Source of the DNA: an uncultured Steroidobacter sp. | Lineage (GTDB): Bacteria; Pseudomonadota; Gammaproteobacteria; Steroidobacterales; Steroidobacteraceae | Assembly: GCA_964457865.1 (NCBI GenBank) | Contig: CAYWHG010000001.1 | Location: forward strand, 54,193 to 118,192 | Length of the DNA: 64,000 nucleotides | Direction: 5' to 3' | In this document: piece after piece, positions 2,098 to 39,417 of the stretch | Position numbering within the stretch: position 1 is the stretch's first letter | Layout: every line of letters begins with the position of its first letter | Notes under the pieces: model-generated | Databases searched by the model: none | Told to the model about the DNA's origin: nothing | What the model saw: only the letters and a program-made list of their open reading frames with translations | Translations under genes and position numbers: made by a program

Positions 2098-2108
2098 CGC
2101 ATGCGGCT

Positions 2109-3128
2109 GTGAAGCCTTGCATGCAGTTCCAATTGGCCACACTGCGCGGTGATGACGACTCCGTGTTTGCCGCAGTGGTTGTCGGGGACAGGGTGACCCG
2201 TCTTGCGGACGTGAAATCTGCGGCTGCGCAACCCGGTCCGACATTGCGCAGCCGTGGTGACGAACTCCTCGACCTGTTCGTCCACTGGGATCACGACTTT
2301 CCGATCCTGCAGCGGATGGCTGCCCGCTTTGGCAGCGATGCGAATTTCATTGCGAGCCTGCCGCTGCGACAGTTCGAACCCTGCGCGCCGTTTGTGCCCA
2401 GGCAAACGTTCTGTGCCATCAACAACTATCGCAGTCATCTCATCAGAAGCGAGCGCAACTCGTCTGACAATCGGGGGCTTTCGCCCGAGGAACAGCACGC
2501 ACAGGACGAGAGCATGCTGGCGCAGCGTCTCGATGGAGCGCCCTATATGTGCTTCAAGTTGCCCAGTACGATCGCGGGGCCGAACGAGGTGTTGTCGATC
2601 CCGTCGGCAGCGACGCGTGTCGACTGGGAGCTGGAACTCGGTGTGGTCCTTGCGCGTGCCTGTCGCAAGGTGAGTCGGGCGCAGGCAATGGAATTCGTCG
2701 CCGGGTATGTCGTCGTCAACGACATTACGGCGCGCGACGCCGTCTTTCGCAAAGACGTGCCGAAGCTCGGCACCGACTGGTTGCAGTCGAAGAACGCGCC
2801 GGGCTTCCTGCCGTTCGGGCCATTTGTCGTACCCGCGGCGTATGTGAAAGATCCGTACGCACTGCGCATGACTTTGAAACTCAATGGCGATGTGATGCAG
2901 GACGAGTGTGTCGCGGACATGCTGTTCGATATAGCGAGCCAGATCGAGTACGTGTCGCATCACGCCGCGCTCTGGCCTGGCGATGTGATCTGCACCGGGA
3001 CGCCAGCCGGTTGCGGCATTCACGTGGGTCGATTCCTCATGCCCGGCGACTACATCGAGGCGACGATCACCGGGCTTGGAACGCAGCGCACCCGTGTCGT
3101 GCAGGATGTGGCGAGGGAATCGAAGTGA
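2109..3128 (+). CDS. Fumarylacetoacetate hydrolase (FAH) family protein
   Basis: DWELELGVV, GYVVVNDITARD, SKNAPGFLPFGP and GDVICTGTPAG motifs. Confidence 0.88.
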   Translation: MKPCMQFQLATLRGDDDSVFAAVVVGDRVTRLADVKSAAAQPGPTLRSRGDELLDLFVHWDHDFPILQRMAARFGSDANFIASLPLRQFEPCAPFVPRQTFCAINNYRSHLIRSERNSSDNRGLSPEEQHAQDESMLAQRLDGAPYMCFKLPSTIAGPNEVLSIPSAATRVDWELELGVVLARACRKVSRAQAMEFVAGYVVVNDITARDAVFRKDVPKLGTDWLQSKNAPGFLPFGPFVVPAAYVKDPYALRMTLKLNGDVMQDECVADMLFDIASQIEYVSHHAALWPGDVICTGTPAGCGIHVGRFLMPGDYIEATITGLGTQRTRVVQDVARESK

Positions 3129-25069: not shown

Positions 25070-26748
25070 GCCTCACGGACGGCGCCTCGAGCAAAGAATC
25101 CGGGGAGGTGCCTCAGCGCTCGTCCATATGGGCGCCGTTTCGCGTACCGATCTTCCGGTCCATGTGGATCAACAGCCTGTTCGCGAACCTGGGCGCCCTG
25201 ATTCAGACCGTTGCCGCCTCATGGATGATGCTGGCGATGACCAACTCCGCCGACATGGTCGCATTGGTGACCACTGCGGTCTCTCTGCCGCTGGTGTTGT
25301 TCTCCCTCGTCGCGGGCGCCATGGCGGACAGTCTCGATCGTCGCCAGGTGATGCTCGGGTCCCAGGTCTTCCTGTTTGTGATGTCGCTCGTGCTGTCAGC
25401 GTGCGCGTGGACCGGGGGACTTACGCCGTGGATGCTGCTGCTGCTGACATTCCTGCTCGGCAGCGGCGGTGCCTTCTACTACCCGGCGTCGCAGGCTGCT
25501 GTCGGTGACATGGTTCCGCGTGCGCAGCTGCCCAATGCCGTGGCGATCAACAGTACGGGATACAACCTTGCTCGCACCGGTGGTCCGGCGCTTGGGGGGA
25601 TCCTCGTTGCGATTGCTGGTGTGGCGGTGGCATTCATGGTGAACGCAGTGAGCAGAGTGGGGCTCGTGATTGTCCTGCTTCGCTGGCGCCCGTCGCTGGT
25701 TCCGCGCCTGTTGCCGCGCGAGCCGCTGGGGTCGGCCGTGGCCGCGGGAATAAGGTATGTGTGGATGTCTCCCGTGCTGCGTGCCGTCCTGGCGCGTGGC
25801 GCGGTGTTTGGCATCGGCGCCAGCGCCGTGACTGCGCTGATGCCGGTCGTCGCCAGGGATTCGATCGGCGGCGGTGCGCTTACGTACGGTCTGCTGTCGT
25901 GCGCTTTCGGTGTGGGCGCAGTGGGTGGTGGCATGTGCAATGAGATCATGAGGCGCATGCTGTCTACGGAAGGCGGTGTCCGCGTGGCAAGTATCGCCTG
26001 CGCGCTGGCGGCGACGGTCATCGGTCTGAGTTCAAGCCTGCTGCTTTCCATGTTCGCGATGATCATTGCCGGCATGGCATGGGTTCTTGCGTTGTCGACG
26101 TACAACGTCAGCGTGCAGCTGTCGGCGCCGCGCTGGGTCGTCGCCCGGGCGCTGTCGATCTATCAGATGGCAACGTACGGGGGCATGGCGCTCGGCAGCT
26201 GGGCGCTGGGCGTACTTGCCGATAGTCGGGGCGTCGCCGTCGGACTGATGGCTGCGGCGGGCGTGCTCGTGTTGAACGCGCTTCTGGGCCGCTGGCTGCC
26301 GCTCACGCAGACGGAGCATCTCAATCTCGATCCGCTGTGGCCCTCGCATGAGCCACAGACCACCGTGCCGGTCGACTACCGCACCGGGCCCGTCGTCGTC
26401 TCGGTCGAGTACAGGATTCGCAGGGAGGACGTTCTCGAGTTCCTCACGCTGATGGCGGAGCGCAGGAGAATCCGGCGCCGTGACGGTGCGCGCAACTGCG
26501 TCCTGTTGCGCGATGTCTCAGATCAGGAGATCTGGATCGAGCGCTACGAGACAGCGACGTGGCTTGAGTACATTCGCCACACCAGCCGCATGACCCACGA
26601 TGACGCAGGGGTATTTCAGCGCCTGCGCGCATTGCATCAAGGGGCGGGCGCTCCGGTCATCCGGCGGCTGCTGGAGCAGCAGTCCGGATCGCCCTCGTAT
26701 GCGGAAGCGTCCGTGCCGATCGCGCCGGTTGGTGAACATTCGGCGTAG
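25066..26748 (+). CDS. MFS transporter (MFS_3/DUF894 type with soluble C-terminal domain)
   Basis: AGAMADSLDRR, NLARTGGPALGG, about 12 TM segments and C-terminal RRIRRRDGAR domain. Confidence 0.88.
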   Translation: MSLTDGASSKESGEVPQRSSIWAPFRVPIFRSMWINSLFANLGALIQTVAASWMMLAMTNSADMVALVTTAVSLPLVLFSLVAGAMADSLDRRQVMLGSQVFLFVMSLVLSACAWTGGLTPWMLLLLTFLLGSGGAFYYPASQAAVGDMVPRAQLPNAVAINSTGYNLARTGGPALGGILVAIAGVAVAFMVNAVSRVGLVIVLLRWRPSLVPRLLPREPLGSAVAAGIRYVWMSPVLRAVLARGAVFGIGASAVTALMPVVARDSIGGGALTYGLLSCAFGVGAVGGGMCNEIMRRMLSTEGGVRVASIACALAATVIGLSSSLLLSMFAMIIAGMAWVLALSTYNVSVQLSAPRWVVARALSIYQMATYGGMALGSWALGVLADSRGVAVGLMAAAGVLVLNALLGRWLPLTQTEHLNLDPLWPSHEPQTTVPVDYRTGPVVVSVEYRIRREDVLEFLTLMAERRRIRRRDGARNCVLLRDVSDQEIWIERYETATWLEYIRHTSRMTHDDAGVFQRLRALHQGAGAPVIRRLLEQQSGSPSYAEASVPIAPVGEHSA

Positions 26749-26839
26749 CGGTGATGCGGACCCGGGTGGGTGATCAGTCGCAAATGGGAACGGCAGGATG
26801 CTCTGCGCAGCTCCGGCTCGCGCATCACTTGCTGCAATC

Positions 26840-26904
26840 TTGACGCGACCAGTTATCAAGAACAGAATGATGTTCTCCTATTGGCACGATTCGCATATGA
26901 GGCC
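26840..26904 (+). promoter_or_regulatory. Promoter of the DUF1592 operon with weak operator-like matches
   Basis: TTGACG-N17-CAGAAT. AACAGAATGATGTTCTCCT (26861-26879, 13/19 to the 19356 site) and ATTCGCATATGAGG (from 26889) share half-sites with the regulon motif. Confidence 0.45.
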
Positions 26905-26908
26905 AGTG

Positions 26909-28621
26909 ATGCTCAAAAGCGTCAGTCGACGTACTGCATGGATCCTGGGTGCGGCGGCAATCTGCGCCACTGCAATCATCGTGTTCTTCCTCGTTCCGTC
27001 TCCCGGTTACAAGGGCGAGATCCGCGGCACCGAGCCGAGGATGCGTCTGATCACGCAGGATCAGTACATCAATACGCTGACCTACATCTTCGGACCGAAT
27101 CTGCGTATCGACGCGCGTTTTGCGCCAATGACTCGTCGCGAAGGCCTGCTGGCCAACGGCGCTGCCGTTGCAACGCTGGATGCGGGGAAACTCGATCAGT
27201 TTCGGCGCACGGCAACGCAGATCGCGGCAGCAGTCACCGAGGAAGGAGCGCGCGACTTCCTGATTCCATGCAGACCCCAGAATGAGCGATCGGCCGACGA
27301 CGCCTGTGCGGCGCAGTTCCTGTCATCTGTGGGGCGGCTGCTCTACCGGCGACCGATGAGTGAGCAGCAGCTGGCTTCACTGGTGGAGAAGGCGGGTACC
27401 GCAGCCGATCAACTTGGAGGGTTCTATCCGGGACTCGCCATCGCACTGGAAGGCATGTTGATCAGTCCGGAGTTCCTGTTCATTGCCGACACCTATGAAG
27501 CGGACCCGGACAACAAAGGAAAATTCCGCTTCGACGCTTACTCCGTCGCGCAGCGGTTGAGTTTCCTGCTGTGGGATGCCGGCCCGGACGAGGCGCTGCT
27601 TCGTGCTGCCGAAACGGGTGAGATCCAGACGCGGCGAGGGCGCGAGCAGATTGTGGACATGATGCTCGCCAGTCCGCGCCTTGAGGTCGGTGTACGCGCA
27701 TTCTTCGATGATCTGATGGACTTCGAGGTGTTCGACACCTTGTTCAAGGATCCCCAGATCTACCCGTCGATCACTGGCGCCACGATTGTCGATGCACGTG
27801 AGCAGACGCTGCGAACCATCGTTGACCATCTGGTCACGAAGGACCGGAGCTATCTCGATCTATTCACGACGCGCGAGACGTTCATCTCTCCGGCACTTGC
27901 GGTGGTTTATGGTACGCCGGCGGTGCAGGGCTGGACTGAGTACGAGTTTCCGGAGAACTCAGGGCGGTCAGGCATTCTGACGCACGTGAGCTTTCTGACC
28001 AGCCACTCGCACCCTGGGCGCAGTTCTCCGACGCGACGCGGCAAGGCCGTGCGGGAACTCTTCCTCTGCCAGACCGTGCCGAATGCGCCGCCGGATGTGG
28101 ACTTCTCCGCTCTGAACAATCCGAATCCGGCGCATCGAACCCAGCGTGATCGGGTGCAGGCTCATCTGGAGAATCCAGTCTGCGCGGGTTGCCACAAGAT
28201 CACGGATCCGATCGGTCTGACGATGGAGCTGTTCGATGGAGGCGGTGTGTATCGCATTGCCGAGCGTGGTGCACCCATTGATGCCTCCGGCGATCTCGAC
28301 GGCAAGCCGTTCAGCGATACGGTGGGTCTCGCGCATGCGCTGCACGACAATCCGGCCTTGCCGAGTTGCCTCGTGCGGCGTGTCTACGCCTATGCAACGG
28401 GCGGGCCCACCACGCATGACGACGGCCCCTATCTCGACTATCTGGCGCAGCGCTTCGGGGAGGAGGGTTACCGGGTTCCGGAATTGCTTCGCGCCATTGC
28501 GTTGAGTCCCGCCTACTCGCAGGCCCGTGCGACGCAACTGGTGGATGGCGACGAGCAGCAGTCCAGTGAGACGGGTCATCTGACGGCAAGTACCTCGAGC
28601 ATTGGGAGTCGCAATGAGTAA
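26909..28621 (+). CDS. DUF1587/1595/1592/1588/1585-type membrane-anchored protein with one c-type heme motif
   Basis: N-terminal TM; RLITQDQYINTL, LLYRRP, LISPEFLF, AQRLSFLLWDAGPD, RSGILT..SSPTRRGKAVRELFLC, CAGCH and IDASG. Confidence 0.85.
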   Translation: MLKSVSRRTAWILGAAAICATAIIVFFLVPSPGYKGEIRGTEPRMRLITQDQYINTLTYIFGPNLRIDARFAPMTRREGLLANGAAVATLDAGKLDQFRRTATQIAAAVTEEGARDFLIPCRPQNERSADDACAAQFLSSVGRLLYRRPMSEQQLASLVEKAGTAADQLGGFYPGLAIALEGMLISPEFLFIADTYEADPDNKGKFRFDAYSVAQRLSFLLWDAGPDEALLRAAETGEIQTRRGREQIVDMMLASPRLEVGVRAFFDDLMDFEVFDTLFKDPQIYPSITGATIVDAREQTLRTIVDHLVTKDRSYLDLFTTRETFISPALAVVYGTPAVQGWTEYEFPENSGRSGILTHVSFLTSHSHPGRSSPTRRGKAVRELFLCQTVPNAPPDVDFSALNNPNPAHRTQRDRVQAHLENPVCAGCHKITDPIGLTMELFDGGGVYRIAERGAPIDASGDLDGKPFSDTVGLAHALHDNPALPSCLVRRVYAYATGGPTTHDDGPYLDYLAQRFGEEGYRVPELLRAIALSPAYSQARATQLVDGDEQQSSETGHLTASTSSIGSRNE

Positions 28622-29951
28622 GTGGAACAGGCGGCGCGTTCTGCGCGGCATGGTGAACGGCGGGTTGGTAACCGTAGGCCTGCCGCTCCTGAATTGTTTC
28701 CTGAACGACAGCGGCACTGCTCTTGCCGACGGGCGACCGTTGCCAGTGCGGTTCGGAACCTGGTTCTGGGGATGCGGCATGAGCGCCAAGGTATTCGTGC
28801 CGAAGAAGCACGGCGCAGGGTACGACCTGCCTGAGGAGATCAAGGCGTTCGCGCCTGTTCAGCAGCACATGAACCTGTTGACGAACTTCTCGGCGTTCCT
28901 CGATGGCAACGAGAACCTCTGTCACTTCTCCGGCTGGGTAGCGACGCGCGCGGGCTCAGCACCGAAGTCGCGCGAAGATCGTCCCGGCGAAACGCTGGAC
29001 ATCACGATCGCAAACCAGATCAGTCGCACGACGCGGTTCAAGACGCTGACCGCCACGGCGACGGGCGAACCGCGCACGACCGTGAGCTACGAAGGGGTCA
29101 ATTCGCCGACGATGCCGGAGTACACGCCGTTGCATCTGTACCAGCGCATCTTCGGGTCGGAATTTCAGGATCCGAACGCCGCTACATTCACGCCCAGTCC
29201 GACGATTCTGGCTCGCAGAAGCGTGCTGTCGGGCGTGATGGATGACGTCAAGAAGGTCAACCGGCGCGTTGGCGCCGAAGACAGGGCGAGACTCGATCAG
29301 TACTTCACCAGCCTGCGTCATCTGGAGCAGCAGCTCGATACACAGTTGCAGCGTCCCGAACCGATCGCCGCATGCCGTGCTCCGAAGCCAATGCAACAGG
29401 ATGTCCAGCCGGGTCGCGACGCGGACATTGTGGCCACGCGGCACAGGATGATGGCCGAGTTCATCGCGATGGCACTGGCCTGTGATCAGACGCGGGTCTT
29501 CAATCTGACCTACTCCGCGCCGTTCTCGGACACGGTGAGAGCCGGGTACGAGCGGCCGCATCATTCATCGACGCATGAAGAAGGAATCGACGACCACCTC
29601 GGATACCAGCCGGAGGTGTCGTGGTTCACCCGCCAGGCAATGGGTTCGTGGGTGGAGCTTGTGCAGACCCTGGCAAGCGTGAAGGAGGGGAGCGGTACGC
29701 TGTTGGACAACTGCTTCATCATGGCCAACTCCGACCATGGACTCGCACGCATCCATTCGCTGGATGGGATGGCAATGTTTACTGCGGGCAAGGCCGGCGG
29801 ACAGTTGAAGACAGGATTGCATATTGACGGTGCGGGCAGTCCCACGACACGGCTCAGCTATACGGCGTTGCGCGTCCTGGGTGTCAATGCGAACTCCTTT
29901 GGCGTCAAGAGCAATGCCACGTCGAAGGAGATTTCGGAGATTCTCGTTTAG
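28614..29951 (+). CDS. DUF1552 domain protein with Tat-like signal
   Basis: NRRRVLRG..VGLPLL, RLDQYFTSLRHLEQQL, ALACDQTRV, HHSSTH and EGSGTLLDN; overlaps the DUF1592 gene. Confidence 0.85.
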   Translation: MSKWNRRRVLRGMVNGGLVTVGLPLLNCFLNDSGTALADGRPLPVRFGTWFWGCGMSAKVFVPKKHGAGYDLPEEIKAFAPVQQHMNLLTNFSAFLDGNENLCHFSGWVATRAGSAPKSREDRPGETLDITIANQISRTTRFKTLTATATGEPRTTVSYEGVNSPTMPEYTPLHLYQRIFGSEFQDPNAATFTPSPTILARRSVLSGVMDDVKKVNRRVGAEDRARLDQYFTSLRHLEQQLDTQLQRPEPIAACRAPKPMQQDVQPGRDADIVATRHRMMAEFIAMALACDQTRVFNLTYSAPFSDTVRAGYERPHHSSTHEEGIDDHLGYQPEVSWFTRQAMGSWVELVQTLASVKEGSGTLLDNCFIMANSDHGLARIHSLDGMAMFTAGKAGGQLKTGLHIDGAGSPTTRLSYTALRVLGVNANSFGVKSNATSKEISEILV

Positions 29952-29972
29952 TGCCTCACGAGTGGAACTGAA

Positions 29973-31364
29973 ATGCGTCGATCTGTCCGAACCACCATTC
30001 TGCTCGCCGTCAATGTTCTCGTCTGTGCCGCAAGCGCGCACGCGGATGTCGCTGGCAGCTATCGGCCGCCAGTGAAGGAAGTGGAGGACTACAAGCGCGA
30101 ACCTCTGCCGCCTGGATTCAGCGTGCAGCTGACGGATGTGGATGGTCCGGTGTTCGCCGCGCCAGGCGGTCTGACGCTGTACACGTGGCCAACTGAAACG
30201 TTGCGCAATGGAGAGGCGGGCGAGCATCCAGACCAGCCGACGTGTGACAACACCCGTTACTCGGCGAATGCGGGATACATGACTCCCTATCCCGCCGGGC
30301 TGATACTTCCGGATCTGGAACAGCGTCCCACGTGTGCGGATCTGTGGCGACCGGTGGTTGCGAATGCGGACGCCAAAGCCGTGGGCAAATTCACGATCGT
30401 TGCGCGCGCTGACGGCAGCAGGCAATGGGCCTACGGCCGCTACGCGGTTTATACCTCTATTCTGGACAAGCAGCCGGGTCAGGTGAACGGCGCATCGAGG
30501 CGCGAGCGTCGTTACGATGCTGCGGTGGGTCGCCGCCCGATCGGGCCATCTCCGAATGTGCCGCCCGCGTTCGATGTGAAGCCGCATGCGACCGGTCGGT
30601 TGGTGGTGACCCGCGACAGCAAGTCCGTGTACACGTGGGATGGCGATGAGCCGGATAAATCGAACTGTCACGGCGCCTGCGTCGAACAATGGGCGCCTGT
30701 TGTCGCTGGTGCGCTCGCGGTTCCCCAGGGCGAGTGGAAGATCATTGAACGCTCACCAGGCGTGAAGCAGTGGTCGTTCCGCGGCAAGCCGCTCTATACC
30801 CATGTGGCCGATCGGCGGCTGCGCAGCCTGGAAGGCAGCGACACACCGGGCTGGCACAACGTCTACACGCAGAAGACTCCTGAGCCACCCGCGGGATTCA
30901 CGGCCCAGGATTCGCGTATCGGGCAGTTGCTTGCCGATCAGAACGGAAAGACGCTTTACCTCTACAACTGCGGCGAGGACACGGTCGATCAGCTGGCCTG
31001 CGATCATCCGACAACCACGCAGGCCTATCGCCTTGCCGTCTGCGGCAATGGCGATGTTGCTCTCTGCAACAAGACCTGGCGCTACGTGCCGGCTGCCGAC
31101 AACGCGGCAAGCAACAATCTGATCTGGGGTGTCGCGTGGATCGATCCCGCGACAGGCAGGTTTGCACAGGCGGGTGCCACAGGTGCGCTGCATGTCTGGA
31201 CCTTCCGCGATCGACCCATCTACACCTTCGTTGACGATGCAAAACCTGGAGACGCCAACGGCGATGCCTGGGGTGAGTTCTGGGGCAACAGGAATGGCTT
31301 CAAAGCGTTCTGGCTGCGAGATGACTTCACGAGTGCCGGCCGGGCGGGTGGCAACGCGGACTAG
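29973..31364 (+). CDS. Secreted protein with three COG4315/Lipoprotein_15-like repeat units, Cys-rich
   Basis: Signal peptide; recurring GxTLY..C..C..W.P....QW.[YF].G.P[LI]YT pattern three times. Confidence 0.72.
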   Translation: MRRSVRTTILLAVNVLVCAASAHADVAGSYRPPVKEVEDYKREPLPPGFSVQLTDVDGPVFAAPGGLTLYTWPTETLRNGEAGEHPDQPTCDNTRYSANAGYMTPYPAGLILPDLEQRPTCADLWRPVVANADAKAVGKFTIVARADGSRQWAYGRYAVYTSILDKQPGQVNGASRRERRYDAAVGRRPIGPSPNVPPAFDVKPHATGRLVVTRDSKSVYTWDGDEPDKSNCHGACVEQWAPVVAGALAVPQGEWKIIERSPGVKQWSFRGKPLYTHVADRRLRSLEGSDTPGWHNVYTQKTPEPPAGFTAQDSRIGQLLADQNGKTLYLYNCGEDTVDQLACDHPTTTQAYRLAVCGNGDVALCNKTWRYVPAADNAASNNLIWGVAWIDPATGRFAQAGATGALHVWTFRDRPIYTFVDDAKPGDANGDAWGEFWGNRNGFKAFWLRDDFTSAGRAGGNAD

Positions 31365-31379
31365 TGTGCGACCTCTTCA

Positions 31380-32540
31380 ATGAGGGACGGGGTGTTTGCA
31401 ATGAGAATGAGCAAGACGGCGCTTCTGTGTGCCGCTACCAGTTGTGTGCTTGCATATGGCGTCGCCGATAGTGCGCGGGCGGCCGACGCATCGAGCGCGG
31501 ATCCGCTGAATCCCTTGCAACTCACCAGCGATGGTCGACTCGCCTATGTGATCACCTCACGGCATTGGGCCGTCTATGCCGATGGTGATGTAAGGAAGAA
31601 TTGCCCCAATGGACTGAATGGTGGTCCGCGAGAGCAGTTCGAGCAGCGCTTCCCCAGCAACGGAACCAGGCGGACGCTGCTTGAAACGCAGCTGATGCGC
31701 GAAGGCGACCAATGGTTTCCTTCCGCGGAGCCGGACCGGTTCACTTTCAGGGAAGTGTCGAGCAGGATTTCATACGGAATGAATCTGGATGGGCAGGTGA
31801 CGCCCGACGATTTCGTCGGTCCGGAAGGCGAGACGGGCGTCGACAACCAGCTCTATCGCGCCATCGGGTGTATTGCCGGATATCGACCCCCCAACGGGCC
31901 GCACAGGGAAAGCGAGTCTCAGAATGTTCCTCGCTACAACTACAACCGTTTCGTGATCGAGCTCACCGGTGTGGATAGCCTTGCGAATGACGACGCAGTC
32001 GTCGTCAAGAGCTATCGCGGTCTGGATCCGCTGATGACCGATGCCAGCGGCACTTCATACATTCCCGGAACGACGCAGCAGATCGATGAGCGCTGGGGCG
32101 CGTTCGCCGAGTCGACATGGAATGGGCGCATTGTCGATGGCGTGTTGATCACCGAACCGGCCGACCTGACGATGCCCGCGGCGTTGAGCTTCGGTACGAC
32201 GGCCAACCATACGCTGAAGGATTATCGTTTCCGTCTGACGCTGACGCCGGAGCATGCGAAGGGGATCATGGCGGGCTATGTCGATGTCGACGCATTCATC
32301 CGTCATCTGAATGTTTCGACTGCCACCGCTATCGCAAGCTACGGACAACTGTCATCGCCATCGCTTTATCGGGCGATGCGCCGGCTGGCCGACGGACATC
32401 CCGATCCAGAAAGCGGCCAGAACACGTCGATCTCTTCCGCGCTGGAAGTCGAGTTCGTACGCGTGTTCCTGGCGCCGCGATCGACTGACCAGGTTGCCCA
32501 TGCTCAGTCGAAGTCGAAACAGGCGGCCAACAATCGTTGA
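31380..32540 (+). CDS. Secreted hypothetical protein
   Basis: 386-aa ORF in operon spacing with a signal peptide (KTALLCAATSCVLAYGVADSARA). No family recognised. Confidence 0.7.
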   Translation: MRDGVFAMRMSKTALLCAATSCVLAYGVADSARAADASSADPLNPLQLTSDGRLAYVITSRHWAVYADGDVRKNCPNGLNGGPREQFEQRFPSNGTRRTLLETQLMREGDQWFPSAEPDRFTFREVSSRISYGMNLDGQVTPDDFVGPEGETGVDNQLYRAIGCIAGYRPPNGPHRESESQNVPRYNYNRFVIELTGVDSLANDDAVVVKSYRGLDPLMTDASGTSYIPGTTQQIDERWGAFAESTWNGRIVDGVLITEPADLTMPAALSFGTTANHTLKDYRFRLTLTPEHAKGIMAGYVDVDAFIRHLNVSTATAIASYGQLSSPSLYRAMRRLADGHPDPESGQNTSISSALEVEFVRVFLAPRSTDQVAHAQSKSKQAANNR

Positions 32541-32567
32541 ACCGGATCGCAGCGCGGACATCGTGCG

Positions 32568-32593
32568 TCCCTCCCCCGCAGGTGGAGGAGGGA
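32568..32593. terminator. GC-rich hairpin (REP-like or bidirectional terminator) between convergent operons
   Basis: TCCCTCCCCC-GCAGGT-GGAGGAGGGA, 10-bp stem with one mismatch. Confidence 0.4.
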
Positions 32594-32637
32594 GCGGAAA
32601 GGAAAGTACACGCTTATCTGGTTGCGGCCGTGTACTG

Positions 32638-33948
32638 CTAGCGTTGTTGCTTGACCTGGGCTGGTTCGACTGCACCCGCATTGTTGCCCCAGCTGTTTCG
32701 TATGAAGCTCAACAGCGCCGCAACCTCTTCGTCCGAGAGCTTGTCGCGGTATGGTTCCATTGCCTTCCATCGCCGCTGCAGCCACAGATCCGAGGGTGCG
32801 TCGTGCGGCAGATCAGGGCCGTCAAGTGTCACATTGATCAGTGATGCAGGATCAGGTGCGAGTGCGATGGGGCTGCCGACAAGGGGCGGCGCGGTGGTTG
32901 GCGATCCCATGCCCGTGGGCAGGTGGCACGTGCCGCAGTGGATCGAATAGAGCAAGTCGCCCTTCGACAAGGTCTGCGCGTCCGGCTTCTTCGTGCCGGT
33001 CTGCTCAACCGGGGGTAGTGACTTCAGATACACGGCCATTGCGCGTACATCGCTCTGTGTCATGTGCCGCGTGCTGTTCATCACGACTTCGTTCATCGGG
33101 CCCAGAACACCAGCGTGGTCGCTGACGCCCAATTTCAGATAGGAGGTCACATCGTCGACAGACCATGCTGCAAGCCCGCTGGGCGCAGAGGTCAGGTTCG
33201 TGGAAGACCAGGTTCGCAATTTTCCATCCGTGAGATGGCTCTGGACTCCTCCCGTCAGTGCCTGCTCCGAACTCTCCGCGCCGAGAAAGTTGCGGGGCGA
33301 ATGGCAGGCGCTGCAATGCGCAAGTCCCTGGACGAGATAGGCACCGCGATTCCACTCCTGCGACTCACCCGCGTCTGGTGTGAACCGCTCCGCATCAAGG
33401 AAGAGGGCCTTCCAGGCGCCAAGCAGCCAGCGCTGGTTGTAGGGAAAGCGTAGTGTGTTGTCCGGTGGCGTGTAGCGAACCGCAGCGACGCTGCGGAAGA
33501 AACTCCAGAGCGCCTTCGCATCCGTATCCGTGATGTTCGTGAATGCGGTGTAAGGGAAGGCCGGATACAGATGGACGCCATCGGGTCGAATGCCTTTACG
33601 CAAGGCGCGTATGAACTGCTCTTCGCTCCAGCTGCCGATGCCGGTGTCCTTGTCCGCGGTGATATTGGTCGAATAGATCGTGCCGAATTGCGTTGGGAAT
33701 GCCACGCCGCCGGCGAACGGTTCACCATCGCTGCGGGTGTGACAGCTCGTGCAATTGGCTGCCACGGCGAGATAGCGCCCGCGTTCTACGGCCTCATGAT
33801 CGATGTCCTCTGCGTTTGCGGGCGTCTGCAGAGAACACAATGCGCATGCGAAGACGGCGAGCAGCCCGAGCGCATGCCTGATGGATCGATTGGGGTGGGC
33901 GTGTGACCTCGCGTGGACGCAAGGGCTTCGCTTCGTGATCCGTCTCAT
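32638..33948 (-). CDS. Triheme cytochrome c (dehydrogenase cytochrome-subunit family)
   Basis: CTSCH, CSACH and CGTCH; RGRYL..FAGG..FGTIYSTNIT..GIGSW and LYPAFPY. Confidence 0.9.
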   Translation of the reverse strand: MRRITKRSPCVHARSHAHPNRSIRHALGLLAVFACALCSLQTPANAEDIDHEAVERGRYLAVAANCTSCHTRSDGEPFAGGVAFPTQFGTIYSTNITADKDTGIGSWSEEQFIRALRKGIRPDGVHLYPAFPYTAFTNITDTDAKALWSFFRSVAAVRYTPPDNTLRFPYNQRWLLGAWKALFLDAERFTPDAGESQEWNRGAYLVQGLAHCSACHSPRNFLGAESSEQALTGGVQSHLTDGKLRTWSSTNLTSAPSGLAAWSVDDVTSYLKLGVSDHAGVLGPMNEVVMNSTRHMTQSDVRAMAVYLKSLPPVEQTGTKKPDAQTLSKGDLLYSIHCGTCHLPTGMGSPTTAPPLVGSPIALAPDPASLINVTLDGPDLPHDAPSDLWLQRRWKAMEPYRDKLSDEEVAALLSFIRNSWGNNAGAVEPAQVKQQR

Positions 33949-34322
33949 GCTGCGTTGTCCGCGCCGGCAGGTCGGGCAGTCCAGGATCTGCAGTGGCCAC
34001 CTGGGTTCACCGGACCGCCGTTGAACATGTCACATCGGCCGCACGATTCACCGGCTGCCGGCGCGTGGAAGAATGCGCATCCTGCACAGACGCTTTGCGG
34101 GTCTGGCGATGCTTCGACATACCCCACTGCATTGCGCGTGTTGCTCTCGGTCGTGCTCAGGTTGCTCGGATCGGCGCAAACAGGCGCGGCTTTTGCGGTT
34201 TCCTGTTTACCGCCACAGGCGGTCAGCACCGATCCGGCGGCTACGCCAGCCGACAGCTGCAGGCCTCGCAGCAGCAACTGACGGCGGCTGATGTGTGCGC
34301 CCGCAAAGTCACGATCTCTCAT
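33945..34322 (-). CDS. High-potential iron-sulfur protein (HiPIP) with Tat signal
   Basis: SRRQLL signal; CAGCAFF...CGRCDMF.GGPVNPGGHCRSW four-Cys pattern. Confidence 0.85.
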   Translation of the reverse strand: MRDRDFAGAHISRRQLLLRGLQLSAGVAAGSVLTACGGKQETAKAAPVCADPSNLSTTESNTRNAVGYVEASPDPQSVCAGCAFFHAPAAGESCGRCDMFNGGPVNPGGHCRSWTARPAGADNAA

Positions 34323-36438: not shown

Positions 36439-36489
36439 GATCGAATATGTGAACGAGGTACGCAATTGTGATTGTTCGCATATCGGAAC
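36439..36489 (+). promoter_or_regulatory. Tandem operators upstream of the TonB-dependent receptor
   Basis: GATCGAATATGTGAAC (36439-36454) and GTTCGCATATCGGAAC (36474-36489), the latter followed by GTGCTACAAAAT (-10-like). Confidence 0.6.
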
Positions 36490-36519
36490 GGCAGTGCTAC
36501 AAAATTTTGGGGAGGCGTT

Positions 36520-39417
36520 ATGCGTAGGCAGAAGCAAGTTGTGAAGGCCGCCAGAAAGGGACAGCGCAATGCCGCGCTGGCCACAACGGCGATTTCGGGC
36601 GGTGTGTTTCTGTGCGCCGCAACAGGCATGGCAGGTGCGGCGGACTCGCCCGAAACTTTAGACATCTCGAAAGTCGACACGGTGGTGGTAACGGGCACCC
36701 GCATCGTGCGTGACGGGTTCGAGGCTCCGACCCCGGTCACCGTTCTGGGCCTTGAGGAAATTCAGCGCGACGCGCCGCAAAACATTGCGGACTTCCTGAA
36801 CAAGCAGCCGGTATTTGCCAACAGCGTTTCGAATACGTTGAGCAACCGCGGCGGCGTCAGCGGCGCGGGTTCGGGTGGCAGCAATGTGAATCTTCGCGGT
36901 ATCGGTGCGAACCGGACGCTGGTGCTGCTTGATGGCGTGCGCATTGTCGCGGGCTCGATCGGCGGCTTCTACAGCAATGGCGGGTCGGTGAACACGAACG
37001 TCATCCCTGACTCCCTGGTCGAGCGCGTTGACGTAGTGACCGGGGGCGCATCGGCGCCCTACGGGTCGGATGCCGTTGCCGGCATCGTCAACTTCATCCT
37101 CGACAAGGATTTCACGGGTTTCAAGGGAACGATGCAGGGCGGTGCTACCTCGGAGGGCGACGACGATCAGTACTCCGTCTCGTTCGCGGGGGGCACGCCG
37201 TTTGCGGATGGGCGTGGTCACATTCTGCTGAGCGCATCGCTCAATGAGATCGATGGCATTCCCGACGGAACAGCGCGTGACTGGTCCGCTGCGGGTTGGG
37301 GGCGAATGGTCAATCCATCCTACACAGCGACCAACGGACAGCCGTACTACCTGCTCCGGCCGGAGATGGGCAGTTCCAGAGTCGCGGCTGGTGGATTGAT
37401 CTCGGGCGGTCCGCTCAGGGGGATCACGTTCGGCGAAGGCGGTGTGCCGCGTGCCTTCAACTACGGTCCTCTCGATGATGGCTCGCTGATGTCGGGCGGC
37501 GATTGGGATGTCGGAACCCAGGGATTCTCCAATGCGAGCCTGGATACGAAGATCAAGCGCACGAATCTGTTCGCGCGCCTGAGTTACAACGTGACCGACA
37601 ACGCCGAAATCTACCTGCAGGTCATGGATTCGGACGCCGATTCGTGGGGCAAGTGCTGCACGATGTCGCGAACAGGCCATACCATTTCCGCAGACAATCC
37701 CTTCATACCGGCCAGCGTTCGTACCCAGATGCAAACGGCGGGTGTGACCTCCTTCCCTCTGGGCATATACATGAGTGAACAGGGGCCGACCGGCGTCAAC
37801 ATCGGTCGTGCGTTCAGTCAGTACATCCTTGGCACGCGCGGCAGCTTCGACATGCTGGGGTCGCCCTGGAAGTGGGATGTATATGCGACAGAAAGCAAGA
37901 ACAGAACGACCGCGATACCCGAGAACGATATCGTCGTTCCCAATCTGTTACTGGCCCTGGATGCCGTGAGCGATCCGGTCAGTGGCCAGCCTGTCTGTCG
38001 TTCGACACTAACCAATCCGGGCAATGGGTGTGTGGCCTGGAACCCGATGGGCGTTGGTATGAACTCGCAGGCAGCCATCGACTACGTCTACCAGGACACG
38101 AGCTGGATGCGCCAGGATCTGACTGAGCGTGTTGCGTCGGCCTCGATCAACGGTGAGCCATTCTCATCATGGGCAGGGCCGGTGTCTCTCGCGCTAGGTG
38201 TCGAGTACCGCCGGGAAGAAGTCGAAACGTGGAGTACAGAACTCGATCAAGCGTCGGCCTTCTACGTCGGCAACTACAAGGAGACCAACGGACACTACGA
38301 CATCAAGGAGGTATTCCTGGAAACCGTCATTCCATTGGCGAAAGACAAGTCCTGGGCGCAGTCGCTGGATTTCAACGCCGCCGTTCGGGCCACGGACTAC
38401 AGCACGTCTGGTTCGGTTGCGACCTGGAAGGTAGGCGCGACCTGGGCGCCCATCGAGGACATCCGCTTCCGTATTACCCGCTCGCTGGACATTCGTTCGC
38501 CGAACATGGGCGAACTGTTCAATGCTGGGTTGACTGCGGTGACCACTGGCCAGCGCGATCCATTCCAGGGAAACCAGACCGTCACCGTCCGCTCGACGCA
38601 GATCGGAAATCCGAATCTCGAACCGGAAGAAGGGGACACGTTCGGTGTAGGCGTCGTGCTCCGGCCGAGGTTCCTGCCGAATCTGTCTGCCTCCATCGAC
38701 TACTACTCCATCGATCTGGACAAGGCGATTACTGCGGTTACGTCGCAGGATCTGCTGGATCTGTGCTACGCCGGGAACCAGGCGCTGTGCGGATTCATCT
38801 CGCGTGACCCGGACGGTACTGTCAGAACGACCCTCATGCCGATCAATGCCGCTGCCCTGGAGACGGAGGGAGTCGACACTGAAGTCACCTACGTTCAGCC
38901 ACTCGGTGACATTGTTGACAGCTGGAGCGGTTCTCTCAGTGCCCGCCTGCTGGTGACGCGCATCATGGATCTGACCACCATCCAGCCAAACGGTACTGAA
39001 TTGCAGGGTGCCGGCGTCACTGGTGGTGCGATGTATCCGATCATGATCGCGCCGGATTGGCGCTATGCGTTGACGCTCACATACAACACCGATGCGCTGA
39101 CTCTGTCGGCAACGGGTCGCGGTTTCAGCGATGGCCTGAAGAACAGTCAGTGGATCGGATGTACCTCCGGCTGCCCGACGTCGACGATACCCAACTACAC
39201 GATTGACAACAACGATATCCCCGGCGCGATCTTTCTGGACATGTCGGCGAGCTATCGTCCGCAGTCTTTCGCTACGGCATTCTCTCCTGAGATCTTCGTT
39301 GCGGTTGACAACGTGACCGACAAGAACCCGATCGGATATGAGGTACTGGACTATGCCCAGACTCCCTGGGACGTGCTGGGCCGGGTATGGCGCGCGGGTA
39401 TCCGGTTCAAGATGTAG
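36520..39417 (+). CDS. TonB-dependent outer membrane receptor
   Basis: TonB box DTVVVTGTRI, VNLRGIGANRTLVLLDG, VERVDVVTGGASAPYGSDAVAGIVNFIL and C-terminal GRVWRAGIRFKM. Confidence 0.93.
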   Translation: MRRQKQVVKAARKGQRNAALATTAISGGVFLCAATGMAGAADSPETLDISKVDTVVVTGTRIVRDGFEAPTPVTVLGLEEIQRDAPQNIADFLNKQPVFANSVSNTLSNRGGVSGAGSGGSNVNLRGIGANRTLVLLDGVRIVAGSIGGFYSNGGSVNTNVIPDSLVERVDVVTGGASAPYGSDAVAGIVNFILDKDFTGFKGTMQGGATSEGDDDQYSVSFAGGTPFADGRGHILLSASLNEIDGIPDGTARDWSAAGWGRMVNPSYTATNGQPYYLLRPEMGSSRVAAGGLISGGPLRGITFGEGGVPRAFNYGPLDDGSLMSGGDWDVGTQGFSNASLDTKIKRTNLFARLSYNVTDNAEIYLQVMDSDADSWGKCCTMSRTGHTISADNPFIPASVRTQMQTAGVTSFPLGIYMSEQGPTGVNIGRAFSQYILGTRGSFDMLGSPWKWDVYATESKNRTTAIPENDIVVPNLLLALDAVSDPVSGQPVCRSTLTNPGNGCVAWNPMGVGMNSQAAIDYVYQDTSWMRQDLTERVASASINGEPFSSWAGPVSLALGVEYRREEVETWSTELDQASAFYVGNYKETNGHYDIKEVFLETVIPLAKDKSWAQSLDFNAAVRATDYSTSGSVATWKVGATWAPIEDIRFRITRSLDIRSPNMGELFNAGLTAVTTGQRDPFQGNQTVTVRSTQIGNPNLEPEEGDTFGVGVVLRPRFLPNLSASIDYYSIDLDKAITAVTSQDLLDLCYAGNQALCGFISRDPDGTVRTTLMPINAAALETEGVDTEVTYVQPLGDIVDSWSGSLSARLLVTRIMDLTTIQPNGTELQGAGVTGGAMYPIMIAPDWRYALTLTYNTDALTLSATGRGFSDGLKNSQWIGCTSGCPTSTIPNYTIDNNDIPGAIFLDMSASYRPQSFATAFSPEIFVAVDNVTDKNPIGYEVLDYAQTPWDVLGRVWRAGIRFKM

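What the first reader, a model, noticed from the sequence alone, without database searches (positions are those of the whole stretch)
26909..32540. Uncharacterised exported four-gene system: DUF1592-type heme protein, Tat DUF1552, triple-repeat Cys-rich protein and orphan secreted protein
Seen: a tight operon (8-nt overlap, then 21- and 15-nt gaps). It encodes a membrane-anchored protein with CAGCH, a twin-arginine His-rich DUF1552 protein, and two secreted Cys-containing proteins. It converges on HiPIP and triheme cytochrome c, and its promoter has weak regulon-type operators. Known: DUF1592-type and DUF1552 genes commonly co-occur and, to my knowledge, have no established function. Inference: a periplasmic or surface redox or metalloenzyme complex, here with accessory subunits and a catabolic context that could reveal its function.
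Basis: partly seen in the sequence, partly recalled or inferred. Interest (0 to 1): 0.8.

Follow-up and report, generated by a model that had tools for sequence, protein, structure and literature searches.

The report
Conserved periplasmic heme–DUF1552 cassette with electron carriers
The four genes are a real and widely conserved exported cassette built on a known but unexplained gene pair; its "orphan" gene belongs to a large unnamed family, and the neighbouring iron-sulfur protein and three-heme cytochrome are dedicated partners, which points to an uncharacterised periplasmic redox enzyme.

Summary
Observation confirmed. Four same-strand genes lie at 26909-32540 with the stated 8-nt overlap and 21- and 15-nt gaps.
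- g1 is a PSD/PSCyt3 (DUF1587/1595/1592/1588/1585) protein with one invariant CxxCH.
- g2 is a twin-arginine DUF1552 protein.
- g3 carries Lipoprotein_15 repeats with 8 conserved Cys.
- g4 has no Pfam or NCBIfam hit.

Corrections and additions:
- g4 is not an orphan. It represents about 720 clusters at 50% identity. Its confident model has no significant PDB fold match.
- A g4-like gene lies beside all five DUF1592/DUF1552 pairs of this genome. It lies within 6 kb of 51 of 62 DUF1552 genes in relatives.
- The order g1-g2-g3-g4 recurs in 31-33 of 53 informative loci, in both Gamma- and Alphaproteobacteria.
- Fusions g4+Lipoprotein_15 and g4+g1 exist.
- The DUF1552 model has a distant alkaline-phosphatase/sulfatase-type fold.
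- The convergent HiPIP and triheme cytochrome c are not chance neighbours. In 31 related genomes, 25 of 26 close cytochrome homologs and 12 of 13 divergent HiPIPs lie within 10 kb of a cassette. Canonical HiPIPs and distant cytochrome homologs never do.

The "regulon operator" and the link to pyridine catabolism are not supported. The most likely function is a periplasmic oxidoreductase wired to the respiratory chain; its substrate is unknown. Co-transcription, heme attachment and complex formation are untested.

The parts
26909..28621 (+). g1: membrane-tethered mono-heme c protein with PSD3-PSD5-PSD4-PSCyt3-PSD2 architecture (DUF1587/1595/1592/1588/1585). It is the proposed electron-transfer subunit.
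   Evidence: Pfam hits. C425-x-x-C428-H429, H368, H419 and 4 further Cys are invariant in 43 homologs. The N-terminus is hydrophobic; most orthologs carry a lipobox there instead. No PDB relative by sequence or profile.
28614..29951 (+). g2: Tat-exported DUF1552 protein with a distant alkaline-phosphatase/sulfatase-superfamily fold and a His-rich conserved site. It is the proposed catalytic metal subunit.
   Evidence: Pfam PF07586 2e-45. R6, R7, H104, H317, T320, H321, E323, D374, H381 and H403 are invariant. AF2 model pLDDT 86, pTM 0.83. All Foldseek top hits are AP-superfamily enzymes, best E 4e-5 and prob 1.0, but TM is only 0.33-0.41. No PDB sequence relative.
29973..31364 (+). g3: secreted protein with three double modules of Lipoprotein_15 repeats and 8 conserved Cys. 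It is an accessory subunit found in one clade of cassettes.
   Evidence: Pfam PF03640, 4 stretches, 5e-32. C91, C121, C232, C236, C333, C343, C357 and C365 are at least 90% conserved in 54 homologs. It lies directly upstream of g4 in 47 of 77 loci. Fusions to g4 occur in both orders.
31380..32540 (+). g4: secreted protein of a large family without a Pfam model and with no significant match to a solved fold. It is the constant third partner of this DUF1552 subfamily.
   Evidence: No Pfam or NCBIfam hit. More than 683 homologs, and 722 clusters at 50% identity. AF2 pLDDT 83, pTM 0.79. No Foldseek PDB match at E<=1e-3. Adjacent to all 5 pairs in the own genome and within 6 kb of 51 of 62 DUF1552 genes in relatives. 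Fusions to g1-type domains, Lipoprotein_15 and tannase.
32638..33948 (-). Triheme cytochrome c of a subfamily that co-localises strictly with the cassette. It is the proposed link to the respiratory chain.
   Evidence: Three CxxCH and Pfam Cytochrom_C. Of 26 homologs with at least 48% identity in 31 related genomes, 25 lie 0.1-9.9 kb from a DUF1552 or g4 gene; none of the 10 more distant homologs does. It is also present in 21 of the 77 g4 loci in varied arrangements.
33945..34322 (-). Divergent HiPIP with a Tat signal and a lipobox-like LTAC. It overlaps the cytochrome gene by 4 nt and belongs to a cassette-specific subfamily.
   Evidence: Pfam HIPIP 30.9 bits against a cut-off of 22. The cluster Cys are present. 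In relatives, 12 of 13 divergent HiPIP matches (24-33 bits) lie 1.2-7 kb from a cassette, whereas none of 26 canonical HiPIPs (55-101 bits) does (coordinates compared). The only other HiPIP of this genome sits directly upstream of the C31 cassette.
36472..39417 (+). TonB-dependent receptor homologous to the receptors that flank the cassette in 21 other loci. It is a possible substrate importer; the link is weak.
   Evidence: NCBIfam TonB families. 35-36% identity over about 700 aa, E 1e-121, to the cassette-linked receptor cluster.

Best explanation
The region encodes one copy (of five in this genome) of a conserved, fully exported multi-subunit system.

Shown by comparative genomics:
- The core is g1 + g2 + g4. 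g1 is a mono-heme c PSD/PSCyt3 protein tethered to the membrane. g2 is a Tat-exported DUF1552 protein. g4 is a secreted protein of an unnamed family with no solved-fold match.
- In this clade a Cys-rich Lipoprotein_15 protein (g3) is added.
- A dedicated triheme cytochrome c, and often a dedicated HiPIP-type iron-sulfur protein, travel with the cassette.

Inferred mechanism:
- DUF1552 is the catalytic subunit. It has an alkaline-phosphatase-type fold whose conserved residues form a His/Asp/Glu cluster (H104, H317, H321, E323, D374, H381, H403). It would be loaded with metal in the cytoplasm and exported folded by Tat.
- It oxidises or reduces a periplasmic substrate, possibly one imported by the TonB-dependent receptors that often flank the cassette.
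- Electrons pass through the g1 heme to the HiPIP and the triheme cytochrome c, and on to the quinone pool or a terminal oxidase.
- g3 and g4 act as structural or substrate-binding subunits.

The substrate and the direction of electron flow are unknown.
For: Conserved unit:
- The order g1-g2-g3-g4 occurs in 31 (plus 2 with duplications) of 53 loci with enough flank. These include Steroidobacter, Peristeroidobacter, Povalibacter, Woeseiaceae, Rhodospirillaceae MAGs and Bradyrhizobium iriomotense.
- A g4 homolog lies beside all 5 pairs in the own genome, even at 25-29% identity and in different gene orders.
- Across 31 relatives, genomes with DUF1552 are those with g4, apart from two that carry the canonical DUF1552 type. 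51 of 62 DUF1552 genes have g4 within 6 kb, and most of the rest lie at contig ends.

Physical association: fusion proteins g4+Lipoprotein_15 (6 cases, both orders) and g4+PSD5/PSD4/PSCyt3/PSD2.

Redox wiring:
- 25 of 26 close triheme cytochrome c homologs and 12 of 13 divergent HiPIPs lie within 10 kb of a cassette. No distant cytochrome homolog and no canonical HiPIP does.
- Their position relative to the cassette varies: convergent, co-directional downstream, upstream, or 7 kb away behind the bkd genes.
- In the own genome both HiPIPs and all 3 triheme cytochromes are on or next to cassette contigs.
- Cytochrome c' and Tat-VOC genes also recur.

Cofactor sites: invariant CxxCH in g1 and invariant RR plus a His cluster in g2.

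Fold: all top Foldseek hits of g2 belong to the alkaline phosphatase superfamily. hhalign places g2 S-D-H-G 373-376 on the sulfatase SDHG motif, although that alignment is not significant.
Against:
- No characterised alkaline-phosphatase-superfamily enzyme is known to me to do redox chemistry.
- The fold match is distant (TM 0.33-0.41). I could not inspect model coordinates, so I did not verify that the invariant His residues cluster.
- Only about 40% of cassettes have their own cytochrome within 10 kb.
- Many sampled genomes are close relatives, so the counts are not independent events. The cassette may also have moved with its neighbours by horizontal transfer.
- Hydrolase-type neighbours (a secreted MBL-fold protein, carboxylesterases, a tannase fusion) fit a hydrolytic role as well.
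- At C22 the cytochrome also lies next to a Mo-hydroxylase fragment, which could be its real partner there.
Confidence: 0.5

Rival explanations
1. The cassette is a periplasmic hydrolase system. DUF1552 would be a phospho-, sulfo- or other esterase of the alkaline phosphatase superfamily, acting on a substrate imported by a TonB receptor. The heme protein would serve as a scaffold, sensor or maturation factor. The cytochrome and HiPIP would serve another process or only the maturation or regulation of the enzyme.
For: AP-superfamily fold. An SDHG-like motif with invariant D374. Frequent neighbours with hydrolytic folds: a secreted MBL-fold protein in 15 loci, carboxylesterases at C31 and a g4-tannase fusion. 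TonB receptors in 21 loci. Tat export is also used by metal-dependent phosphatases such as PhoD and PhoX (my own knowledge).
Against: No Ser/Thr/Cys nucleophile motif of the CxPxR kind was found. The invariant residue before the helix that follows strand 2 is His104, which I place at the nucleophile position by inference only. An invariant covalent-heme motif in the obligate partner, and strict co-localisation of dedicated cytochrome c and HiPIP subfamilies, are hard to explain for a pure hydrolase.
Confidence: 0.22
2. The cassette is an electron conduit or metal/metalloid-handling system rather than an enzyme for an organic substrate. Examples would be oxidation or reduction of Fe, Mn, Cu, As or a sulfur species in the periplasm. 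The Cys-rich g3 and g4 would bind the metal, and the HiPIP would be the high-potential acceptor.
For: HiPIPs are known acceptors in iron and thiosulfate oxidation (my own knowledge). There are 8 conserved Cys in g3 and a His-rich site in g2. TonB receptors also import metal chelates. CHRD and cytochrome c' neighbours recur.
Against: No metal-resistance or Sox genes were seen among the recurrent neighbours. The g3 Cys pattern looks like structural disulfides within repeats. g4 has no conserved His, Met or free Cys.
Confidence: 0.13
3. The operon is an accessory part of the local pyridine/nicotinate-like catabolic regulon, under the shared operator, and acts on a pathway intermediate.
For: The cassette lies within a catabolic island (first-stage notes). 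Partial synteny with Peristeroidobacter soli: isochorismatase, hydrolase and MFS_3 genes nearby.
Against: The operator-like site in the promoter is at chance level. In other genomes the cassette is flanked by unrelated genes such as TonB receptor, MBL and bkd genes. Four further copies in the same genome sit in other contexts.
Confidence: 0.05

Closest known systems
PSCyt3/PSD ('group III planctomycete-specific cytochrome', DUF1587-1595-1592-1588-1585) plus DUF1552 (HXXSHH) gene pair of Planctomycetes and Verrucomicrobia
   Same: Same Pfam domain architecture in g1, the same DUF1552 partner immediately downstream, a CxxCH in the PSCyt3 domain, and export signals. The literature states that PSCyt3 genes sit next to a conserved unknown family and that nothing is known about their function (PMC5615132).
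   Different: - This proteobacterial subfamily scores lower against the Pfam model (about 100-185 bits, ending near position 287-293) than the 'canonical' copies of two related genomes (250-356 bits), which lack g4.
- It is mono-heme.
- It carries a constant extra partner (g4), often g3, and dedicated HiPIP and triheme cytochrome genes.
- The motif reads H-H-S-S-T-H-E-E rather than HXXSHH.
Alkaline phosphatase superfamily (type I sulfatases such as choline sulfatase 6fny/7ptj and carrageenan sulfatases, cofactor-independent phosphoglycerate mutase, phosphoethanolamine transferases, phosphonoacetate hydrolase)
   Same: The predicted core fold of DUF1552, and an S-D-H-G stretch at the position of the superfamily's metal-binding D-H motif.
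   Different: No sequence-level similarity. Low TM-scores. No CxPxR or Ser/Thr nucleophile motif. A His-rich conserved set. An obligate heme c partner and electron carriers.
Membrane-bound periplasmic dehydrogenases with a triheme cytochrome c subunit (gluconate 2-dehydrogenase, alcohol/aldehyde dehydrogenase subunit II type)
   Same: A cytochrome of about 430 aa with three CxxCH, encoded near a periplasmic enzyme and plausibly passing electrons to quinone.
   Different: No flavoprotein, PQQ or molybdenum dehydrogenase subunit lies beside it in the window. The co-localising partner is the DUF1592/DUF1552/g4 cassette plus a HiPIP.
Cytochrome-DUF1552-ankyrin triads and HiPIP-led DUF1552 cassettes noted earlier in this scan (AI notes, not published)
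   Same: The same core pair, the same AP-type fold call for DUF1552, a lineage-specific exported third partner, and electron carriers nearby.
   Different: Here the third partner is the g4 family, not an ankyrin protein. g1 has one heme, not two. A Lipoprotein_15 protein is added. I did not re-examine those other genomes.

Membership tests
PSCyt3/PSD + DUF1552 gene pair | Pfam domains PSD5, PSD4, PSCyt3 and PSD2 (with or without PSD3) in one protein | tested here: met
   four domains score above their cut-offs. PSD3 scores 19 bits against a cut-off of 23.
PSCyt3/PSD + DUF1552 gene pair | CxxCH heme-binding motif in the PSCyt3 domain | tested here: met
   C425-A-G-C-H429 is invariant in 43 homologs and in all 4 paralogs. 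Heme attachment itself was not tested.
PSCyt3/PSD + DUF1552 gene pair | DUF1552 gene directly adjacent | tested here: met
   8-nt overlap in the window. The two genes are adjacent in all 5 copies in the own genome.
DUF1552 (PF07586, HXXSHH) | Profile match above the gathering score, and the His motif | tested here: met
   156 bits against a cut-off of 30. The motif is the variant H316-H317-S-S-T320-H321-E-E, with H317, T320, H321 and E323 invariant.
DUF1552 (PF07586, HXXSHH) | Twin-arginine signal | tested here: met
   N-R-R-R-V-L-R-G, with R6 and R7 invariant in 44 sequences. Export by Tat was not tested.
Alkaline phosphatase superfamily | Core alpha/beta fold | tested here: met
   Foldseek: all top hits belong to this superfamily, best E 4e-5 and prob 1.0. 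TM is only 0.33-0.41.
Alkaline phosphatase superfamily | Ser/Thr/formylglycine nucleophile at the N-terminus of the helix after strand 2 | tested here: inconclusive
   There is no CxPxR motif. The invariant residue at the expected place is His104. I had no access to model coordinates, so its position is inferred.
Alkaline phosphatase superfamily | Metal-binding Asp after strand 1 and the D-H pair | tested here: inconclusive
   D374 is invariant and H375 variable. No Asp follows strand 1 (RFGTWFWG). hhalign to sulfatases is not significant (E 0.1).
HiPIP (PF01355) | Profile match above the cut-off and four cluster Cys | tested here: met
   30.9 bits against a cut-off of 22, matching only the C-terminal two thirds of the profile. 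C79, C82, C97 (or C94) and C111 are present.
Dehydrogenase-type triheme cytochrome c | Three CxxCH in about 430 aa | tested here: met
   CTSCH 66, CSACH 212 and CGTCH 338.
Dehydrogenase-type triheme cytochrome c | Encoded with a flavoprotein, PQQ or molybdenum dehydrogenase | tested here: not met
   No such gene is adjacent in the window. Close homologs co-localise with the cassette instead.
Lipoprotein_15 (PF03640) | Repeats matching the profile | tested here: met
   4 stretches, 110 bits. It falls below the cut-off of the SCO0930 equivalog, 86 against 275 bits, so it is not that family.

The most novel reading that the evidence does not exclude
The cassette and its dedicated HiPIP and triheme cytochrome c form a previously unrecognised class of respiratory-chain-linked periplasmic oxidoreductase. 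In it, an alkaline-phosphatase-fold protein (DUF1552) has been converted from a hydrolase into a His-ligated redox metal centre. It would be coupled through a mono-heme PSD/PSCyt3 subunit, and assembled with a subunit of a fold not seen in solved structures (g4). This would give a first function to protein families that have been unexplained since they were defined in Rhodopirellula baltica.
Probability: 0.3. Interest if true: 0.85.

Novelty: new variant of a known kind. Interest (0 to 1): 0.62.

Why it matters
DUF1592-type and DUF1552 genes are abundant in Planctomycetes, Verrucomicrobia, Acidobacteria and many soil and marine Proteobacteria, often in many copies per genome. The searched literature says nothing is known of their function.

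This locus and its relatives supply concrete handles:
- a defined subunit set (g1, g2, g4, with or without g3);
- a partner family that has no Pfam model and no solved fold match;
- dedicated electron carriers that argue for redox chemistry and offer a simple read-out (cytochrome reduction).

Cultured carriers exist for genetics: Peristeroidobacter soli, Steroidobacter species and Bradyrhizobium iriomotense. The result also offers an answer for the neighbouring finding of a 'HiPIP + triheme cytochrome without a dehydrogenase': the cassette is its likely partner.

Tried and rejected
- Sequence and profile searches of g1-g4 against PDB found nothing usable. The SoxZ and VNAR hits at E about 0.2 were dismissed as chance.
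- Foldseek of the g4 model against PDB gave no hit at E<=1e-3. The best hits (PknI sensor, YceI-like, lipocalin and barrel proteins) have TM<0.3 and were not used.
- hhalign of the DUF1552 alignment against own-genome sulfatases and DUF1501 proteins was not significant.
- Operator search: the core GAATGNCATTC occurs with 0-1 mismatch at seven places, including the four operator sites cited in the first-stage notes (19360, 34667, 55039, 57589), but not before g1. The 2-mismatch site there is at chance level.
- No consensus terminator was found in 26400-33000. The hairpin between g4 and the cytochrome gene is not better than shuffles, z -1.2.
- Literature searches for DUF1552, DUF1592, PSCyt, PF03640 and COG4315 found no functional study.
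- The idea that DUF1552 needs a formylglycine was rejected. C103 is not conserved in the distant paralogs and there is no CxPxR motif.
- The idea that the bkd genes are functional partners is left open. They adjoin the cassette in 19 loci, but they are cytoplasmic and may simply be linked by descent or by block transfer.

Full report
**1. What is in the window**

- g1 (26909-28621) matches PSD5, PSD4/DUF1592, PSCyt3/DUF1588 and PSD2 above their cut-offs, and PSD3 just below.
- g2 (28614-29951) matches DUF1552/HXXSHH at 2e-45.
- g3 (29973-31364) has four Lipoprotein_15 stretches.
- g4 (31380-32540) matches nothing in Pfam or NCBIfam.
- A triheme cytochrome c (32638-33948) and a HiPIP (33945-34322), which overlap each other by 4 nt, converge on g4.
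- An MFS_3 transporter gene lies upstream.

g1 has one CxxCH (CAGCH at 425) and a hydrophobic N-terminus. Most orthologs carry a lipobox there instead, so the protein is tethered to the membrane either way. g2 starts MSKWNRRRVLRG. g3 and g4 have ordinary signal peptides.

**2. The 'orphan' is a large family and the constant partner**

A tblastn search of the window's own genome (5.3 Mb, 376 contigs) found five paralogous g1-g2 pairs, on contigs C1, C147, C124, C22 and C31. A g4 homolog lies next to every one of them, in three different gene orders and at identities down to 25-29%. g3 accompanies only C1 and C147.

In the large protein collections g4 has more than 683 homologs, all 'hypothetical' and none with a Pfam domain. 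It has 722 representatives at the 50% clustering level. The nearest named relatives are from Peristeroidobacter soli, which suggests the genome belongs to the Steroidobacteraceae.

A scan of one genome per species returned 77 loci. Of the 53 with enough upstream sequence:
- 31 have g1-g2-g3-g4 in this order, plus 2 with a duplicated gene;
- 13 have only g3-g4;
- about 6 have g4 alone or in tandem arrays.

Carriers include Steroidobacter, Peristeroidobacter, Povalibacter, Woeseiaceae, Rhodospirillaceae MAGs and Bradyrhizobium iriomotense.

In 31 related genomes, genomes with DUF1552 are those with g4. The exceptions are two genomes whose DUF1552 copies are of the higher-scoring 'canonical' type; one has 19 copies and no g4. 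Among the other DUF1552 genes, 51 of 62 have g4 within 6 kb, and most of the remainder sit at contig ends. DUF1552 itself is rare in the phylum at large, in 2 of 150 sampled genomes.

Fusion proteins join g4 to Lipoprotein_15 (six cases, both orders), to PSD5-PSD4-PSCyt3-PSD2, and once to a tannase/feruloyl esterase. The last stands in a g1-g2-g3-g4::tannase operon. These fusions come from metagenome gene calls and could include errors, but their number argues for physical association.

**3. Structures**

- The g4 model is confident (pLDDT 83, pTM 0.79). It has no Foldseek match in PDB at E<=1e-3.
- The conserved residues of g4 are a Cys pair (C75, C164) and many Asp, Arg and Glu. They include an L-D-G…D…P-G…G-x-D-N-Q…R stretch. 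No conserved His or Met points to a redox cofactor.
- The g2 model (pLDDT 86, pTM 0.83) hits only alkaline-phosphatase-superfamily enzymes: choline and carrageenan sulfatases, iPGM, phosphoethanolamine transferase, phosphonoacetate hydrolase, alkaline phosphatase and autotaxin. The best E is 4e-5 and the probability 1.0, but TM is only 0.33-0.41. It is therefore a distant member at fold level only.
- Sequence and profile searches see no solved relative, and hhalign to sulfatases is not significant.
- The invariant residues of g2 are H104, H317, T320, H321, E323, D374, H381 and H403.
- There is no CxPxR motif. The Cys before H104 is lost in the distant paralogs.
- I infer, but could not verify on coordinates, that H104 sits where the superfamily's nucleophile normally is, and that the site has become a multi-His metal centre.
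In g1, CxxCH, H368, H419 and four more Cys are invariant. In g3, eight Cys are conserved in three double modules.

**4. The electron carriers are dedicated partners**

This is the main addition. Homologs of the window's triheme cytochrome occur in 21 of the 77 g4 loci and homologs of its HiPIP in 12. Their arrangements vary:
- convergent (the window, L008);
- co-directional just downstream (L027, L049, L065);
- upstream (L067, L071);
- about 7 kb downstream, behind a bkd operon and two Lrp genes (Steroidobacter species);
- after a g4-tannase fusion (L086).

In the window's own genome there are only three triheme cytochromes of this kind and two HiPIPs.
- One of each is in the window.
- One cytochrome lies 1 kb from the C22 cassette.
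- One HiPIP, followed by a cytochrome c', lies directly upstream of the C31 cassette.
- The third cytochrome is on C118, behind bkdB-lpdV-lrp-lrp. In Steroidobacter that is the continuation of a C147-type cassette, and C147 ends right after g4.

Across 31 related genomes:
- 25 of 26 cytochrome homologs with at least 48% identity lie 0.1-9.9 kb from a DUF1552 or g4 gene. The exception is C118.
- None of the 10 more distant homologs does.
- The Pfam HiPIP search separates 26 canonical HiPIPs (55-101 bits), none near a cassette, from 13 divergent ones (24-33 bits). Twelve of these lie 1.2-7 kb from a cassette (compared).

With a few cassettes per 4-9 Mb genome, chance proximity would be on the order of 1-2% per gene. 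The genomes are related, so these are not independent events. However, the variety of arrangements and the clean split between subfamilies argue for selection on linkage. About 40% of cassettes have a cytochrome of their own within 10 kb.

**5. Other recurrent neighbours**

- TonB-dependent receptors: 21 loci, often directly upstream and co-directional. The window's receptor at 36472-39417 is a 35% identical homolog.
- bkd E1alpha: 19 loci.
- Lrp regulators: 16 loci.
- A secreted metallo-beta-lactamase-fold protein: 15 loci.
- CHRD proteins: 9 loci.
- Cytochrome c' and a Tat-signal VOC/glyoxalase protein.
- Carboxylesterases at C31.

None of these except the receptor is in the window next to the cassette.

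**6. What is not supported**

- The promoter 'operator' is a 2-mismatch match to GAATGNCATTC, and such matches are as common as chance predicts.
- The cassette's context differs between genomes and between the five copies in this genome, so the pyridine-type catabolic island around it says little about its function.
- No consensus terminator or significant hairpin marks the operon end.
- Transcription could not be examined.

**7. Mechanism**

Shown: a conserved gene set for exported proteins, with an invariant heme c motif, an invariant Tat signal and His cluster, gene fusions, and dedicated HiPIP and triheme cytochrome subfamilies.

Inferred: DUF1552 is a metal-dependent catalytic subunit. 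g1 relays electrons to the HiPIP and triheme cytochrome, and from there to the quinone pool or an oxidase. g3 and g4 bind substrate or stabilise the complex. TonB receptors may supply the substrate.

I put about 0.5 on this redox-enzyme reading and about 0.2 on a hydrolase with a heme accessory. I put about 0.13 on a metal or inorganic-substrate system and about 0.05 on a role in the local catabolic regulon.

**8. Comparison with what is known**

The pair PSCyt3/PSD + DUF1552 is described as a conserved pair of unknown function in Verrucomicrobia and Planctomycetes (PMC5615132). No functional paper was found. This locus is a member of that pair by every feature I could test.

It is a distinct subfamily: mono-heme, a variant His motif, lower profile scores, an obligate g4 partner, an optional Lipoprotein_15 partner, and dedicated carriers.

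Earlier AI notes from this scan report the same pair with an exported ankyrin partner in Acidobacteria. They also report HiPIP-led four-gene cassettes in other Proteobacteria. They agree with my results but are unchecked leads, not evidence.

I therefore rate the locus as a new variant of a known, uncharacterised kind, of moderately high interest.

Noticed in passing
window 32638-34322: This is the neighbouring first-stage finding 'HiPIP + triheme cytochrome c but no dehydrogenase'. The cassette at 26909-32540 is the likely missing partner, because both genes belong to subfamilies found almost only beside such cassettes.
   Followed up: yes
own genome C147 (ends after g4) and C118 (bkdB-lpdV-lrp-lrp-cytochrome c-cstA): In Steroidobacter loci the cassette is followed by bkdA1-A2-B-lpdV, two Lrp genes, a CHRD gene and the cytochrome. 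C147 and C118 are therefore probably adjacent pieces of one locus split by an assembly break.
   Followed up: partly
L007, L032, L038, L043 and 15 other loci: A branched-chain keto-acid dehydrogenase operon (E1alpha, E1beta, E2, E3) adjoins the cassette in 19 loci from both Gamma- and Alphaproteobacteria. This may reflect a functional link or block transfer; it is unexplained.
   Followed up: partly
L019, L035, L038, L043, L048, L053, L054 and others, about 2000-3100: A secreted metallo-beta-lactamase-fold protein of about 323 aa lies between a TonB-dependent receptor and g1 in 15 loci. It is absent from the window.
   Followed up: no
related genome G176 (same order): It carries 19 copies of the 'canonical', high-scoring DUF1552 type and no g4 homolog, so the partner type differs between DUF1552 subfamilies.
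   Followed up: partly
L008 (CAZOGW010000181.1): This 4.7-kb contig is labelled as an uncultured Acidimicrobiaceae MAG, yet its g3, g4, cytochrome and HiPIP proteins are 89-96% identical to the window's. It is probably mis-binned. Several 'Marinimicrobia' MAG contigs also carry proteobacterial-type cassettes.
   Followed up: no
L007 10001-16641; L010, L014-L018, L066: Rhodospirillaceae and Rhodobacterales MAGs carry tandem arrays of three or four g4 paralogs, interleaved with an extra g3, after a single g1-g2.
   Followed up: no
own genome C31 14144-22729: A compact variant locus: HiPIP, cytochrome c', g1, g2, g4, a secreted VOC/glyoxalase-like protein, then two carboxylesterases, one with a Tat-like signal.
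   Followed up: partly
own genome C22 57-3561: The cassette-type triheme cytochrome here also lies beside the C-terminal part of a molybdenum-hydroxylase large subunit. A PQQ-type dehydrogenase follows the cassette. The cytochrome's partner at this locus is therefore ambiguous.
   Followed up: no
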